NCBI GenBank assembly: GCA_964016885.1
Contig: OZ024745.1
Span: forward strand, 115,754,001 to 115,818,000
Source of the DNA: Eledone cirrhosa
Taxonomy: Eukaryota
DNA length: 64,000 nucleotides
Direction of reading: 5' to 3'
Shown here piece after piece: positions 5,303 to 63,300 of the stretch (positions are counted from its first letter, which is position 1; each line of letters starts with the position of its first letter). Both the position numbers and the translations under genes were made by a program. The notes beneath the pieces are model-generated. The model had not been told where the DNA came from. It did no database searches and saw only the letters and a program-made list of their open reading frames with translations.

Positions 5303-5432
5303 ATAACACACGGGATGTGGTAAGATACCAGGTGGACCATAACGTACTAGAGTACTCAATACTTAGGGTAGTAGAGTGGGTAATAGAAAAAGAGTCAGGA
5401 CACGAACGGATGAGCTGCGGCCGTTTCGACAG
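5303..5432 (-). mobile_element. Family C short PLE-terminus element in (TATC)n
   Basis: Shares GGACCATAACG..GAGTACTCAATACT..GGTAGTAGAGTGGGTAATAG and CGTTTCGAC with copies at 31950, 50779, 54799 and 62103. Confidence 0.7.
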
Positions 5433-6314
5433 ATCTATCTATCTATCTATCTATCTATCTGTCTATCTCTACATCCAGCTTATTCACAAAGAATAACATT
5501 TTATGCATTCGCTACGACTAATAACTAAAAGATGCCTCAACTTTTGATTCAATAAGTTGTTTTCTATTTCATAACTAAATACAAATAGAAATAAAATATA
5601 AATGAAATCCAAAGAAACATTGACCTTCATAGAATTATAAACAGGTTTCTTAAACTAGAAATCATAACGAAGTATGGCATTAGAAAGACAAGATCACAAC
5701 TTATAAAAATAAAGTATTTATTTTACATGCTTTTCATTACTTTTTTTTCACAATTTAATAAAAACAAAACATATTTTAATTAGAACGATAATTAAATCTT
5801 TCATATTAAGTTGAAAGAGTAAAAAAAGATGTTAGAAACTTAAATTAATTTAAAAAATGAAATGGAATAATTTCCACGAGAATCCTTAATCCAAGAGTAA
5901 TTAAAAGGTTGATATTTTAAATTGAAAAAGATGAAATGAAGTAACTCCCCCTATCTCTCTCATATATATGTATATTCCACATTTTTATTGTTTTGTTTAA
6001 TATGCGCTCTAATACCTGTTCTATCTTTCTTTGTCACTCACCTATTGAATCATACAAGTTGTAAAATTGACCGGTTTACGCACGTGGTTGATCGAACTAT
6101 CTAGAATTCAAACTCTAGCCAGCGCGCTAATTCTATATTGCTGTCTAATTGCCTGTTGGTATTTAATGTCTGGAAAGGCTTTAGGCACTACCCTTGTTTA
6201 CTGTCGCACTATTTCTCGCCATGGTACTTGGAGACTGGAGCCGAATGCTACCATTCTATTATATTTATGTGTTCATGTTGATTAATAAAATGACAAGACA
6301 GTCAACCATATTGA

Positions 6315-6533
6315 TGGCCTCCCCACAGTCTCGGCGGACAGAATGGAGAAGGCGTTTCCCCGGAGGACGACAAGGGAGACGCGCTGGAAGAGCCATTCCA
6401 ACTCGTGAGTCTCACACCTGCGGTTGGCCAGTTCAGCGCCTGTGGTGGTGAGTAGGGAGGTAGCCCTAGGGCCGAGGACACCAGAAGTCTACACTGCCAA
6501 GGGCACGACCGCAAACCTGTCGGAGAGCGACTG
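6315..6533 (-). mobile_element. CRE-like non-LTR retrotransposon 3' fragment
   Basis: Diverged copy of 42655-42873 (GGAGAAGGCGTTTCCCCGGAGGA...ACCGCAAACCTGTCGGAGAGCGAC). Confidence 0.7.
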
Positions 6534-6556
6534 ATTTACTCTAATAACCGATTTTT

Positions 6557-6905
6557 GAAGGCGCATGGCTTAGTGGTTAGAGCGTTGGGCTTGCCAACGG
6601 AAGGGTGTGAGTTCGATTTTCGGACCGGGTGATGCGTTGTGTCCATGAGCAAGACACCTTATTTGACATCGCTCCAGTTTATTCAGCTGTAGAAATGAGT
6701 TGTGACGTCACTGGTGTCAAGCTGTATCGGCCATTGCCTTTCTCTTGGACAATATCGGTGGCGTAGAGAGGGGAGGTGGGTATGCATGGGCGACTACTGG
6801 TCTTCCACAAAAAACCTTTCCCACGCTTGTGTGCCTTGGAGGGAAACTGTTTATGTGTAAATCCCATGGTCATTCCTGACTGAAGGGATCTTTGCTCCCT
6901 TTACT
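6557..6905 (+). mobile_element. tRNA-derived SINE family 2 (CORE-like central block)
   Basis: A box TGGCTTAGTGG, B box GAGTTCGATT, central TTGTGTCC..GAGCAAGACAC block; related copies at 10825, 28305, 52855, 54597. Confidence 0.8.
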
Positions 6906-8884
6906 ATTATTTACCCGTTAAGAAATGTGTGTATCATCAATTCAGAGCGATGAACGTAGGAGTTAAACATGGCGTTTCAAAGTTTCAATGTCGCCTAGGA
7001 GATTCCTATTCAATTGATTATCTTCTTACAAATACAAAAAGTGAGTAGTTATCATTTTTCATAGAAAATGTATTAAAAGCTAACGGAGAATAAATATGCG
7101 CTGAGAAAAAGAATGATAACAATTATTATATTTGCCTAATATTTCTGCTTATATCGACTCATATATAAGACAAGTCATTGACTATGGAGGCTCTTTCAAT
7201 AGTTTTCATTGCTTGTATATCTTCTAAGCTACATAACAGCAAGACTATATATATGTTCAGCGTTTTCTCGCATATTTTCGGTTGAACGAAAGAAATATAC
7301 ATGTATTAATATACTAGCAGAAAAATCACCCTTCGGGTAGTTTTCTGTTAGCATGTGTAGTGTGCATATTGATATTATACGCAAATATATATGCATGTAG
7401 ATATGATATATCAAATGAAATCGTAATTGACAATATACACAGAAATTGAACGAAGTCTTCGTTACACTGTCTTATGTAATTAGTAACGTAATCCATGATA
7501 AATAAAAAAAAGACGATATTATATATAAACTGCATTAGGAGAAAATTAGTGACGGAAATATATGAATAAGCAATCGCTAACCGGAAGTGTTGATATTTGA
7601 ACATTTTAAAGAAGTGAATCTTAAAATACGCAACAAAATTATTTATATTTAATCAAGAATAACGAAATTTAGTATTGTGATATATTTTAGAAATGTAATG
7701 ACGTATGAGCTACATATTCTGACATACATTACCCCTTAACTTTAGGTAGGCGCAGAAGAATATTACAATAAATGTGCTATAAAATTGATGAGTACATTGC
7801 TAGATGACAGAGTGCTGAGTTCAATAGATCCTACAGAACAAGTGAGCTACTGTAAATTGACAATCCTTTAAACGAAAATCATTTTCATTCATTTAATATT
7901 ACAGGAACCAAAGTTAATTACTGATCTTGTGGACAAGGAATTCTCGTAAAAATACACATATAATGATTATTGAGATGATCTTACCTCCTAATAGCACATG
8001 TAATATATCGAGAGCTTTTTAGGCAGGTATTGAAATTGTTATGCATAAGGATTTGAGCTGAATATAGCATGCTAACAAAAGACTTAATACTACGGAGTGG
8101 CACGAATTATTCTAGAAAGCTGTGGACTAATTATAGAGAAATGAAACATTACGTCCTATCAAGTTAGAAAGAACAAGTGTCATGGATACGACGGGTTATT
8201 ATTTACAGACCTTTTACTTAATTATTACTTAACCACCCAGTTAGTAATACATCCACTGATTATATAAAACCGGTCTCCACATCAAATACACGTCAAAGGT
8301 TTGTTACCAATGACTGTCCTCTTCAGTAAATCTATATTTTAAACAGAAAATGAAACAGAACTTATTTGATAGATATCAGCACACAGAGCACAAAGTACTA
8401 GAGGTGGTTATATGCAAATGAATATATTTATCGAGTCAGATTCTAATTGTTCGATAATGATATGTTCTATTGTTCTTGACAAAACGGAAGCAAAATAACT
8501 ATACGGTTCTTTATTGTGATTATTGCTCCATAATTTAATTTGGAGATAATACGAAACAACACTTTCGATCAATCTTTTTTAGATTGGTCATAAAGTACAG
8601 AATCAAATTTCATAGTTTGTCATAGATTGTTAACTTTACTTCCAGGCGCTTTCAATGCTTAGTTTAATATAGATCATACAGAAGAGAATAAATAACTTCA
8701 GGCCACTTGGTAAATAGATCAATAATTGCTATATCACATAAAAATCGAAATATTTCCCCTGAATACTGTTGATATTCAGTGTATGGCAATACTAGTAAAG
8801 AGTCAGACAAAAGTATTGAGTGTAATCTAATCGACTTTACTTTCCTTCAAATATTTGTGGCATTGTGTTTGTGTTAGATATTGA

Positions 8885-61790: not shown

Positions 61791-61992
61791 ATTGGCAATA
61801 TTATATGTCAGCTCAACGATATGGAGCAGTTAATAGTATTAGTTATACTATTTATGGTTATGTAAACTGCCACTCTAAATTCTGTAATGAATGTTGACCC
61901 ACAATGTTTGAATATGTATCAATGTTTGAATATGTATTGGTATGTCTCTCGGCTGAAAAGGAGGTCATATAACTGTCCATGCATTAATAAAT

Positions 61993-62039
61993 TGCTCCGA
62001 AGAATCCAAACCTCGGTTTGGAGGAAACAGCTGTAAGCA
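61993..62039 (+). ncRNA. Hammerhead ribozyme in the inverted 5' pLTR copy
   Basis: Exact reverse complement of 57841-57887. Confidence 0.8.
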
Positions 62040-62102
62040 CAATAATGTTTTGAACAGTTCTTTGATTCTTATATTTCATATATATATATATATATATATA
62101 TA

Positions 62103-62297
62103 TAGGAACGAGTAGGATCCCGACGGCTGAGCTCAAGCCGTTTCGACGGCTAATTCTGGACTCTATTAGCCGTCGAAACGGCTTGAGCTCAGCTGTCGGG
62201 GTCCTACTCGTTCCTATTACCCACTCTACTACCTTAAGTATTGAGTACTTTAGTGCGTTATGGTCCACCTGGTTCCTTACCACATTTCCTTCGTTAT
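62103..62297 (+). mobile_element. Family C fold-back element in the same (TA)n tract as the full-length PLE
   Basis: ~50-bp arms ATAGGAACGAGTAGGA..GACGGCTAAT / ATTAGCCGTC..TCCTACTCGTTCCTAT plus family tail. Confidence 0.8.
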
Positions 62298-62847
62298 ATA
62301 TATATATATATATATATACATATATATATACATACATATATATATATATATATATATATATATATATATATATATATATATATATATATATATATATATA
62401 TATATATATGCTGTAAAGCATGGTGTCTGACGCTCTACCGATACTGCCAATTCACCACCCTTAAATAATATCGACACATCATACATCCCCATATTTGCTT
62501 CAACCGCCCCATTCATCCACTCTTCCTCTCTTTGCCTCTATCCCCCTCACTATATATATCTTTTACGTCCATTCGTCTTACCATCTCTTTTCATTTGTAT
62601 TTTTCAGCTCTTGCTAGTCTAATACTAATTCTTATTACTTCTACACATGTACCACCCCTCCCTCTATAACTATATATCTATCAATCTCTCACTCTCTCAC
62701 TGTCTCTCTCTCTCTCTCTCTATCTATCTATCTATCTATCTATCTATCTATATATCTATCAATCTCTCTCCCACTCTCTCTATCTTCTCTCTCTCTCTCT
62801 ATCTATCTATCTATCATTATATATATATATATATATATATATGTATA

Positions 62848-63300
62848 TAGTAAGTTATTCCGGGTTGAATCGGAGGTAACCACAGTAAGTAAGATATTCA
62901 ATACATGGCAAAGTATAAAAGTTTTAATATAGATGAGATTCTACAGGACTAGAACTGTTTCATTCTTTAGAAATCATCAGGATTCCTGATGATTTCTAAA
63001 GAATGAAACAGCAATCCTATGTCTGCAGAAAATTGCCCTTTCTATTTTGCTGTTGAGTAGCATTTTATCGTTCCTTAAGATATGTAGCAATTCAAGGTTG
63101 CAGAACCCGCAATGGGACATACCACTGCTATAGGCCTTTGCGGCCGCTAACTTCGACCAGCTAATATTGTAATCAAGGTTTTTGTCCTTAAGTTGCCAGA
63201 TTTTATTGGCGAGGGTTGTAGAATTTACCAGTGTACGGTTCTTCATTGAATGTCTGTGCCCATACCACCTTTTCTTTAAAACACTCGGGTGGATCCACGT
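62848..63300 (-). pseudogene. Second Naiad-like PLE: GIY-YIG C-terminal fragment with fold-back HHR-like junction
   Basis: KKRWYGHRHS..STTLANKIWQLKD..ISW..AKAY..CGFCNLE..LLNSKIERAIFCRHR; palindrome at 62954-63011 containing CTGATGA..GAAAC. Confidence 0.85.

What the first reader, a model, noticed from the sequence alone, without database searches (positions are those of the whole stretch)
5303..63011. Many unrelated hammerhead fold-back families concentrated in (TA)n microsatellites
Seen: at least seven sequence-unrelated families (9759, 25212, 37932, C, D, E and the PLE pLTRs) share one plan: microsatellite, short inverted arm, sense arm, 3' tail, microsatellite. Each has a complete, variant or truncated HHR, mostly with a palindromic stem III (GATC, CGCG, AGCT, AATT, GGCC, CG, TA). 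Established: palindromic minimal stem III is linked to dimeric HHR cleavage, and 5' inverted pLTRs are a PLE hallmark. Inference: an abundant, diverse TA-targeted ribozyme retroelement population that repeat annotation would largely miss and that may help maintain the microsatellite-rich landscape.
Basis: partly seen in the sequence, partly recalled or inferred. Interest (0 to 1): 0.8.

Follow-up and report, generated by a model that had tools for sequence, protein, structure and literature searches.

The report
Hammerhead-bearing Penelope retrotransposon fold-back fragments
These hairpin-shaped repeats are the hammerhead-motif-bearing ends of several Penelope-type retrotransposons and their short tandem relatives, sitting in TA microsatellites; their fixed ends suggest that many are likely two partial reverse-transcribed copies joined head to head, which would make the poorly understood Penelope insertion mechanism testable.

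Summary
Eleven families with no cross-family DNA similarity carry type I hammerhead motifs: 5 descriptor hits in the window versus 0-1 in shuffles, and 23 in 400 kb elsewhere versus 0-3. Palindromic stem III changes compensatorily within families. Families A, E and G are pseudo-LTRs of autonomous PLEs with Hydra-clade motifs; G is intact and very young. B and F are 429- and 486-bp tandem retrozyme-like units. Each dispersed family has two fixed 3' ends 30-162 nt apart, flanked by (TA)n, matching the two RT start sites shown in vitro for a Poseidon PLE. In 20 of 97 fold-backs the inverted arm holds sequence the sense arm lacks, favouring two joined cDNAs. In five families the 5' ends pile up at an Inr-like CA, with TATA or DPE at canonical spacing in three. 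Two pre-registered tests in other families failed, so this is not general. Most E copies lack the catalytic core, and only 23 of 257 sampled TA arrays abut the catalogued families. All components are known PLE biology. The scale (roughly 10^5 motifs), long tails and promoter-bounded fold-backs are new. No RNA data were available.

The parts
5303..5432 (-). Family E (E2 subfamily) solo copy, 3' half of HHR only, in (ATCT)n
9762..10296 (+). Family A fold-back: inverted arm 9762-9956, sense arm 9953-10296; HHR 9953-10107 (CUGAAGA, 116-nt stem II region, CGAUCG, GUU); pLTR of an autonomous PLE with an 830-aa stop-to-stop ORF
15078..16362 (-). Family K inverted pair; HHR-like motif with variant core CAGUUGA at 15311-15344 (-) and 16172-16205 (+)
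20115..20292 (+). Family C short fold-back truncated 3' of the HHR (no ribozyme)
20400..20672 (-). Family D copy ending at the short 3' site; minimal HHR 20471-20507 with U3-A8 core (UUGAAAA, CCGG, GUA)
20955..21142 (+). Family I pLTR with minimal HHR 20959-21000, next to a PLE RT fragment
25213..25873 (.). Family B inverted pair from a 429-bp tandem unit; complete minimal HHRs 25780-25824 (+) and 25325-25369 (-)
31946..32134 (+). Family E (E2) fold-back, core absent
37441..37831 (+). Family I pLTR with mutated HHR (37654-37695); broken non-Hydra PLE ORF pieces lie at 34850-36767 (-)
37935..38658 (+). Family F fold-back from a 486-bp tandem unit; complete HHR 38395-38476 (CUGAAGA, 53-nt stem II region, CCGCGG, GUA)
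50779..50945 (-). Family E decayed fold-back between (TA)n tracts
54176..54521 (-). Family C fold-back; family core CCGAGGA (U4C), mutated to CCGGGGA in this copy; CAAUUG, GUA
54792..55390 (.). Family E decayed inverted pair (54792-54909 -, 55281-55390 +)
56821..57176 (-). Family D fold-back; intact HHR 56959-56995 (-), mutated core in the + arm
57637..62082 (-). Family G full-length PLE: inverted pLTR 61861-62082, ORF 61790-59331 (819 aa from Met; RWR, DKT, YRDD, CxCx5C, GIY-YIG, CxxC/CxH), 3' UTR, pLTR with HHR 57841-57887 (CCGAAGA, CAGCUG, GUA) and 161-nt tail
62105..62294 (+). Family E (E1) fold-back; 3' half of HHR only; pLTR of an autonomous PLE
62848..63011 (-). Family H fold-back; HHR 62937-62985 with 3-bp stem III and 8-nt loop; preceded by a PLE endonuclease fragment (62977-63411)
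63421..63958 (+). Family J copy (just outside the finding); HHR 63797-63904 (CUGAUGA, CAAUUG, GUC)

Best explanation
These repeats are hammerhead-motif-bearing pseudo-LTR ends of several Penelope-like retrotransposons (A, E and G sit next to PLE ORFs) and of short tandem non-coding units (B, F), and the fold-backs likely arise when the PLE protein nicks both strands of a (TA)n target and makes two cDNAs that are then joined head to head. Shown: two fixed 3' ends per dispersed family, the short one on the inverted arm and the long one on the sense arm; (TA)n flanks; 12-15 bp TSDs at some impure sites; independent 5' ends of the two arms. Inferred from the Anolis Poseidon in vitro work: each end is an internal RT start site. 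Inferred for A, C, D, E and H only: RT often starts in the promoter-proximal pLTR and runs off the 5' end of the mRNA, giving 130-340-nt copies bounded by the transcription start. The HHR would act on tandem or full-length transcripts as a stem III dimer, and most solo fold-backs would be inactive by-products.
For: ORF continues directly after the long 3' end in A (L025), E (L058, L201) and G (L256); ORFs are 42-44% identical to G and carry Hydra motifs (definition). Two ends relative to HHR C3: A +198/+333, C +131/+213, D +109/+171, E +103/+183, F +153/+265, G +85/+246, H about +57/+132, P +155/+185, Q +159/+321. Two RT start sites equal to the tail, with both strands cut and extended, are reported in PMC11167929. 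Inverted arm longer at its 5' end by >10 nt in 20 of 97 fold-backs, sense longer in 17, symmetric in 60. TSD-like matches in 33 of 150 insertions versus 10-25 in 40 permutations. 5' pile-ups: A 19/46 at -9..-5, D 31/78 at -43..-39, H 33/50 at -6..-3, E 78/110 at +36..+52, C edge at -37..-33. There: YCA in 5 of 5 (background 10.6%), TATAAA at -30 (D) and -32 (H) (background 0.9%), RGACGTGY at +28 (C); the last is the Penelope DPE of PMC2377424. Palindrome covariation: CAGCTG/CAATTG, CAATTG/CGATCG/CGGCCG, CCGCGG/CTGCAG.
Against: No sharp 5' limit in G or F. Two pre-registered predictions failed: J (predicted -13; 20 of 33 ends at or beyond -259, only -11, -10 and 0 nearby) and P (predicted -4; ends dispersed or beyond -131), although both have TATA boxes. 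The promoter motifs were recognised after the pile-ups were seen. The H and E junctions coincide with small natural inverted repeats that could create the hot spot alone. D and H are only suggestively linked to an ORF, and C by one copy. The TSD count includes trivial near-pure TA matches. No RNA run holds the element, so no TSS, cleavage or circle was observed.
Confidence: 0.62

Rival explanations
1. Fold-backs form by snap-back self-priming of a single strand at small palindromes, as proposed for rotifer PLEs; the sharp 5' limits mark micro-palindromes or RT pause sites rather than transcription starts.
For: 60 of 97 fold-backs are symmetric, and junction overlaps of 1-6 nt are common. 13 of 18 H junctions fall at one mini-hairpin. 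The model is proposed in PMC3846280. The TSS prediction failed in J and P.
Against: It cannot make the 20 of 97 arms that hold 5' sequence absent from the sense arm and does not explain the fixed short end. Several D copies without any inverted arm begin at -43..-40 directly after a microsatellite. TATA or DPE spacing is exact in C, D and H.
Confidence: 0.2
2. The short fold-backs are self-propagating SINE-like subfamilies copied from a few short master copies, so the shared 5' limit reflects the master rather than repeated independent events.
For: Very high copy numbers of uniform short forms (1200-2800 first-look candidates for E, C and H). No full ORF-linked copy was found for D or H.
Against: Junction positions and filler differ between copies in A, C and E, which points to independent formation at each insertion. 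Short and full-length A copies are 99-100% identical.
Confidence: 0.13
3. Hammerhead cleavage sets the ends of these elements (cleaved or circular RNA templates), so the population is mainly ribozyme-processed retrozymes.
For: B and F are tandem units with HHRs, F in an array of about 20 units. F 5' ends are mildly enriched just after the cleavage site (12 versus 6.2 expected, p=0.02, post hoc).
Against: In A, C, D, E and H neither end coincides with the cleavage site, and copies run through it. HHR mutants did not affect insertion in vitro.
Confidence: 0.05

Closest known systems
Hydra clade of C-terminal EN+ Penelope-like elements (Craig et al. 2021, PMC8557442)
   Same: RWR/RWK, DKT, CxCx5C linker, CxxC and CxH around the EN end, HHR in pLTR, (TA)n insertion, inverted 5' copy plus optional tail.
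   Different: Units of 4.2 kb (G) and 6.5 kb (A) rather than generally <3 kb; tails mostly 60-162 nt rather than 30-40; very high copy number and recent activity in a probable octopod; short fold-back solos dominate.
Minimal PLE hammerheads (Cervera and de la Pena 2014, PMC4209133)
   Same: Type I, palindromic stem III, extra nucleotide before stem II, U3-A8 variant, opposite-strand pairs 100-700 bp apart.
   Different: Stem II regions up to 116 nt; U4C in 25 of 26 copies of an intact young family; a family-wide CAGUUGA core in K; E has a 5-bp stem III but mostly loses its core.
Non-LTR retrozymes (Cervera and de la Pena 2020, PMC7229834; Li et al. 2026, 10.64898/2026.07.22.740005)
   Same: B (429 bp) and F (486 bp) are non-coding tandem units with a type I HHR, within the reported 51-972 bp range, co-occurring with PLEs.
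   Different: They show PLE-type inverted arms, two fixed 3' ends (F) and (TA)n flanks; no autonomous partner or circRNA was shown here.
Anolis Poseidon PAc in vitro mechanism (Frangieh et al. 2024, PMC11167929)
   Same: Two internal RT start sites downstream of the HHR, AT-rich target, uncleaved RNA as template.
   Different: Here inferred from genomic ends in another clade; one end is assigned to each arm, and a 5' limit at a predicted promoter is added.

Membership tests
Type I hammerhead ribozyme | Conserved core (CUGANGA or covarying variant, GAAA, UH) at a three-stem junction | tested here: met
   for B, F, G, H, D, C, I, J and full-length E; K departs at positions 4 and 6; A has a weak base of stem II
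Type I hammerhead ribozyme | Compensatory stem changes among homologues | tested here: met
   double changes in B, C, D, F, G, H; none in A, E, I (8, 12 and 18 rows); alignments are BLAST-based
Type I hammerhead ribozyme | Self-cleavage at the NUH site (as a dimer for minimal forms) | not testable with these tools
   Only predicted stem III self-duplexes of -4.8 to -14.1 kcal/mol
Hydra-clade PLE (A, E, G) | Single ORF with RT and C-terminal GIY-YIG; RWK-like, DKT, CxCX5C, CxxC/CxH motifs | tested here: met
   for A and G; E ORF seen for RWR, DKT, YRDD (654 aa, cut by the locus end) and linker/EN in a broken copy. Pfam found nothing significant
Hydra-clade PLE (A, E, G) | HHR in pLTR; tandem and inverted pLTR; (TA)n insertion | tested here: met
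Hydra-clade PLE (A, E, G) | Generally short (<3 kb); a tendency in the source paper, not a strict criterion | tested here: not met
   G unit about 4.2 kb, A unit about 6.5 kb
Hydra-clade PLE (A, E, G) | Monophyly with named Hydra families in an RT tree | not tested
   No reference Hydra proteins were available by name; 304 homologues were found, almost all unnamed
Hydra-clade PLE (C, D, H) | pLTR physically part of an ORF-bearing element | tested here: inconclusive
   C: one copy with an EN end 1.3 kb upstream and a shared UTR; D, H: one inverted ORF each at the 5' junction, arm not closed
Non-LTR retrozyme (B, F) | Non-coding head-to-tail units with a type I HHR | tested here: met
Non-LTR retrozyme (B, F) | Expressed as circular or linear monomer RNA | not testable with these tools
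   No RNA holder listed for the one stretch searched (family G); B and F were not searched

The most novel reading that the evidence does not exclude
The commonest PLE insertion in this genome is a strong-stop-like double cDNA of the mRNA leader, running from the capped transcription start to the two RT start sites and joined head to head in (TA)n. This gives on the order of 10^5 hammerhead motifs and perfect 50-200-bp hairpins, a genome-scale readout of PLE promoter, priming and integration chemistry. In family E the start lies inside the ribozyme, so the mRNA cannot cleave its own 5' end.
Probability: 0.45. Interest if true: 0.72.

Novelty: new variant of a known kind. Interest (0 to 1): 0.52.

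Why it matters
How PLEs form their tandem and inverted structures and why they favour microsatellites is named as an open question in PMC8557442. Here nine families give precise, family-specific predictions for RT start sites, five give predicted transcription starts, and an intact, very young element (G, 40 of 40 scored copies 100% identical over 394 nt) offers a reagent. The estimated density, about 50 complete HHR motifs per Mb, is far above the 235 Rfam hits reported for giant squid (PMC6962438) or the ~5,000 in mussel and ~9,000 in Xenopus, although methods differ. If transcribed inside introns, the perfect hairpins would be candidate dsRNA substrates for editing or silencing; that step is speculation.

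Tried and rejected
Rfam scan: the 150 matches shown of 255 were nearly all sub-threshold miRNA hairpins with no hammerhead family; 105 were not shown. First descriptor found nothing because it disallowed a mismatch at the base of stem II; fixed. Pfam: no significant family for six PLE pieces. HHR cleavage site as element boundary: rejected for A, C, D, E, H; weak in F. B 5'-end analysis was swamped by the microsatellite inside the unit and was discarded. TSS-limit as a general rule: failed in J and P, absent in G and F; Q was uninterpretable because the reference stopped matching at -98. MAFFT alignment across six families was uninformative. Search for an autonomous partner of B, F, K: none found among held loci. 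RNA: no RNA holder listed. Lunse et al. 2017 on dimeric PLE hammerheads is not held, so its variants could not be compared; I saw it only as a citation in PMC6765202. Earlier findings: none returned. Literature searches found no paper describing cephalopod PLE hammerheads or promoter-bounded solo fold-backs. The library lacks most subscription papers and Repbase, and I did not open the supplements of PMC8557442, which list Hydra families and HHRs and may include cephalopod entries.
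Full report
Setting. The window is G000:C5:115754001-115818000 of a 3.0-Gb genome. It was not verified. Family letters: A (9759), B (25212), F (37932), C, D and E as in the finding, G for the pLTR of the long ORF, and H, I, J, K for further window families. Positions are given relative to HHR nucleotide C3.

Observation. A strict type I descriptor gave 3 hits versus 0 in each of 60 shuffles. A relaxed one gave 5 versus 0-1 in 30 shuffles, and 23 hits in 40 evenly spaced 10-kb stretches versus 0-3 in 5 shuffles. 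About 20 credible hits per 400 kb extrapolate to roughly 1.5 x 10^5 genome-wide; this is uncertain by at least twofold because the stretches were hand-spaced and 5 hits come from one array. Nine families with references gave 49 segments and 9,040 bp in those 400 kb. Descriptor hits in all 1.59 Mb then held formed 23 clusters, 16 with two or more members. The HHR regions of 11 families show no mutual BLAST hit at E<0.01. Rfam showed no hammerhead among the 150 matches listed of 255.

Ribozyme anatomy. Cores among copies covering the motif: A CUGAAGA 39/39; B CUGACGA 36/48; F CUGAAGA 74/87; H CUGAUGA 52/60; I CUGAAGA 18/24; G CCGAAGA 25/26 and C CCGAGGA 16/34 (U4C); D UUGAAAA 83/86 (U3-A8); E UUGAGAA 6 and mismatched CUGAGAA 6 of 15. 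U3-A8 and U4C are known natural variants, and U4C is weaker in vitro (PMC3088659, passages; PMC4209133, first two of four parts). K has CAGUUGA in 13 of 20 copies. Stem III palindromes change compensatorily within families (CAGCTG/CAATTG; CAATTG/CGATCG/CGGCCG; CCGCGG/CTGCAG), and double changes also occur in stems I or II of B, C, D, F and H; none were seen in A, E or I. By established knowledge this points to selection for dimeric folding; activity was not tested.

What the families are. G is a full element in the window with an intact 819-aa ORF; 40 of 40 scored copies are identical over the last 394 nt. A belongs to a 6.5-kb element with an 830-aa stop-to-stop ORF and a 3.5-kb UTR of which 1,316 nt are dinucleotide runs; 40 full-length hits to its 3' end were 99-100% identical. 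E continues directly into a related ORF. A and G carry RWR, DKT, YRDD, CxCx5C, CxxC and CxH, the Hydra-clade signature, for which (TA)n insertion and HHRs are published (PMC8557442, passages). C is probably the same; D and H are unresolved. I adjoins a different PLE type (YVDD, CVIC linker). B (429 bp) and F (486 bp, one array of about 20 units) are non-coding tandems like non-LTR retrozymes (Li et al. 2026, parts 1-3 of 5; PMC7229834, passages). J also continues into a shared downstream sequence in many copies.

Integration signature. Each dispersed family has two fixed 3' ends; in fold-backs the short one ends the inverted arm and the long one ends the sense arm. The tails are 30 nt (P), about 60-82 (I, D, H, E, C), 112 (F), 135 (A), 161 (G) and 162 (Q), against the published 30-40. 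Frangieh et al. (PMC11167929, parts 1-2 of 4) showed two internal RT starts bounding the tail, cutting and extension of both strands, and no need for HHR cleavage. Both ends abut (TA)n far above the 5.6% background; the low values for B (23/61) and F (16/69) reflect tandem continuation, and for I (13/28) my reference stopped at the short end. TSD-like matches occurred in 33 of 150 insertions versus 10-25 permuted, with clear 12-15 bp cases in G, A and H. The inverted arm extends further 5' than the sense arm in 20 of 97 fold-backs (F excluded), which a snap-back copy of the sense cDNA cannot give; 60 of 97 are symmetric and fit either model.

The 5' limit. In A, C, D, E and H the 5' ends pile up: A 19/46 at -9..-5, D 31/78 at -43..-39, H 33/50 at -6..-3, E 78/110 at +36..+52, and C with an edge at -37..-33 and 22/40 between -37 and -3. 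These sets mix selected and incidental copies; in unselected loci the same bins dominate for A, D, E and H. The limits fall on YCA in all five, with TATAAA at -30 (D) and -32 (H), TATTTAA at -25 (E) and the Penelope DPE RGACGTGY at +28 (C) (backgrounds; PMC2377424, passages). I infer transcription starts, so the short copies would be cDNAs of the mRNA leader. Against this: the motifs were recognised post hoc, G and F show no limit, and two predictions written down in advance failed (J; P). H and E junctions also sit on small natural inverted repeats. I put this step at about 0.55 for those five families and reject it as a general rule.

Function of the solo copies. 103 of 110 E 5' ends lie 3' of the core. 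In five window fold-backs the GAAAC half is predicted to be paired in the arm duplex. Most solos are therefore likely inactive by-products; the HHR would matter in tandem or full-length transcripts.

Microsatellites. Insertions split a TA tract, duplicate 12-15 bp and, for A, carry TA/TG runs. But (TA)8+ covers 3.3% of the sampled DNA, and only 23 of 257 arrays (14 of 35 in the window) abut one of nine catalogued families. Uncatalogued families would raise that share by an unknown amount.

Other runs. No RNA holder was listed. Run X2 covers the unique DNA and shows depth on G falling steeply 5' of the HHR region (summed contig depth is not a copy number).

Verdict. The feature is real and well above chance. 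Its parts match known PLE and retrozyme biology. A 2026 octopus annotation already lists 31 recently active PLE families without mentioning ribozymes (PMC13282606, passages). What is new is scale, long tails, core variants in a young intact family, and the evidence that many fold-backs are paired, promoter-bounded partial cDNAs. Other papers seen as passages: PMC3846280, PMC6765202, PMC6962438, PMC8969392. No supplements were read.

Noticed in passing
window 57637-61860: Runs X1 and X6, labelled as other organisms, hold element G in pieces of up to 776 nt with 0-4 differences but cover none of the unique DNA at 38700-46400 at 90% identity. This is either horizontal transfer or cross-contamination from a high-copy repeat; X5 looks like trace contamination.
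   Followed up: partly
window 15311-15344 (-) and 16172-16205 (+): Family K keeps hammerhead geometry but has the core CAGUUGA (U4A, A6U) in 13 of 20 copies; it may be an untested core variant or an inactive relic.
   Followed up: partly
L199:3495-7030: The 3' UTR of active family A is 3.5 kb with 1,316 nt in TA/TG/CA runs, so the element itself carries microsatellites; C copies share a similar TG-rich UTR.
   Followed up: partly
L203 (G000:C1:176443889-176453336): Array of about 20 head-to-tail 486-bp F units at 89-93% identity to the window copy.
   Followed up: partly
L208, L209, L210, L213, L220, L236, L238: At least seven further HHR families outside the window, including a 311-bp tandem and a second U3-A8 family with an 8-nt palindrome.
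   Followed up: partly
window 16363-16497, 28845-28975, 56300-56361, 57209-57288: Two more repeated 3' tails ending in (TA)n (78 and 36 hits in held loci), likely further PLE-type families; one has a lone CUGAUGA.
   Followed up: partly
window 3516-3728 and about 20 other places: Very abundant ~210-bp SINE-like family (recalled as octopus OR/OK type) and a second tRNA-like repeat (6556-6731, 10840-11015, 28300-28446, 52850-53030).
   Followed up: no
window 32532-34237: 41-bp minisatellite of about 42 copies; also a 209-bp tandem at 21750-22281 with SINE insertions.
   Followed up: no
window 29258-30126 and 34850-36767: Two broken copies (91-93% alike) of a non-Hydra PLE with a CVIC linker; other decayed LINE and DNA-transposon fragments at about 2540-4500, 12000-13440 and 42650-43290.
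   Followed up: no
window 9609-9665, 9670-9717, 57400-57541: Short hairpins within TA tracts without a recognisable HHR.
   Followed up: partly
window 14145-14344: 200-N assembly gap.
   Followed up: no
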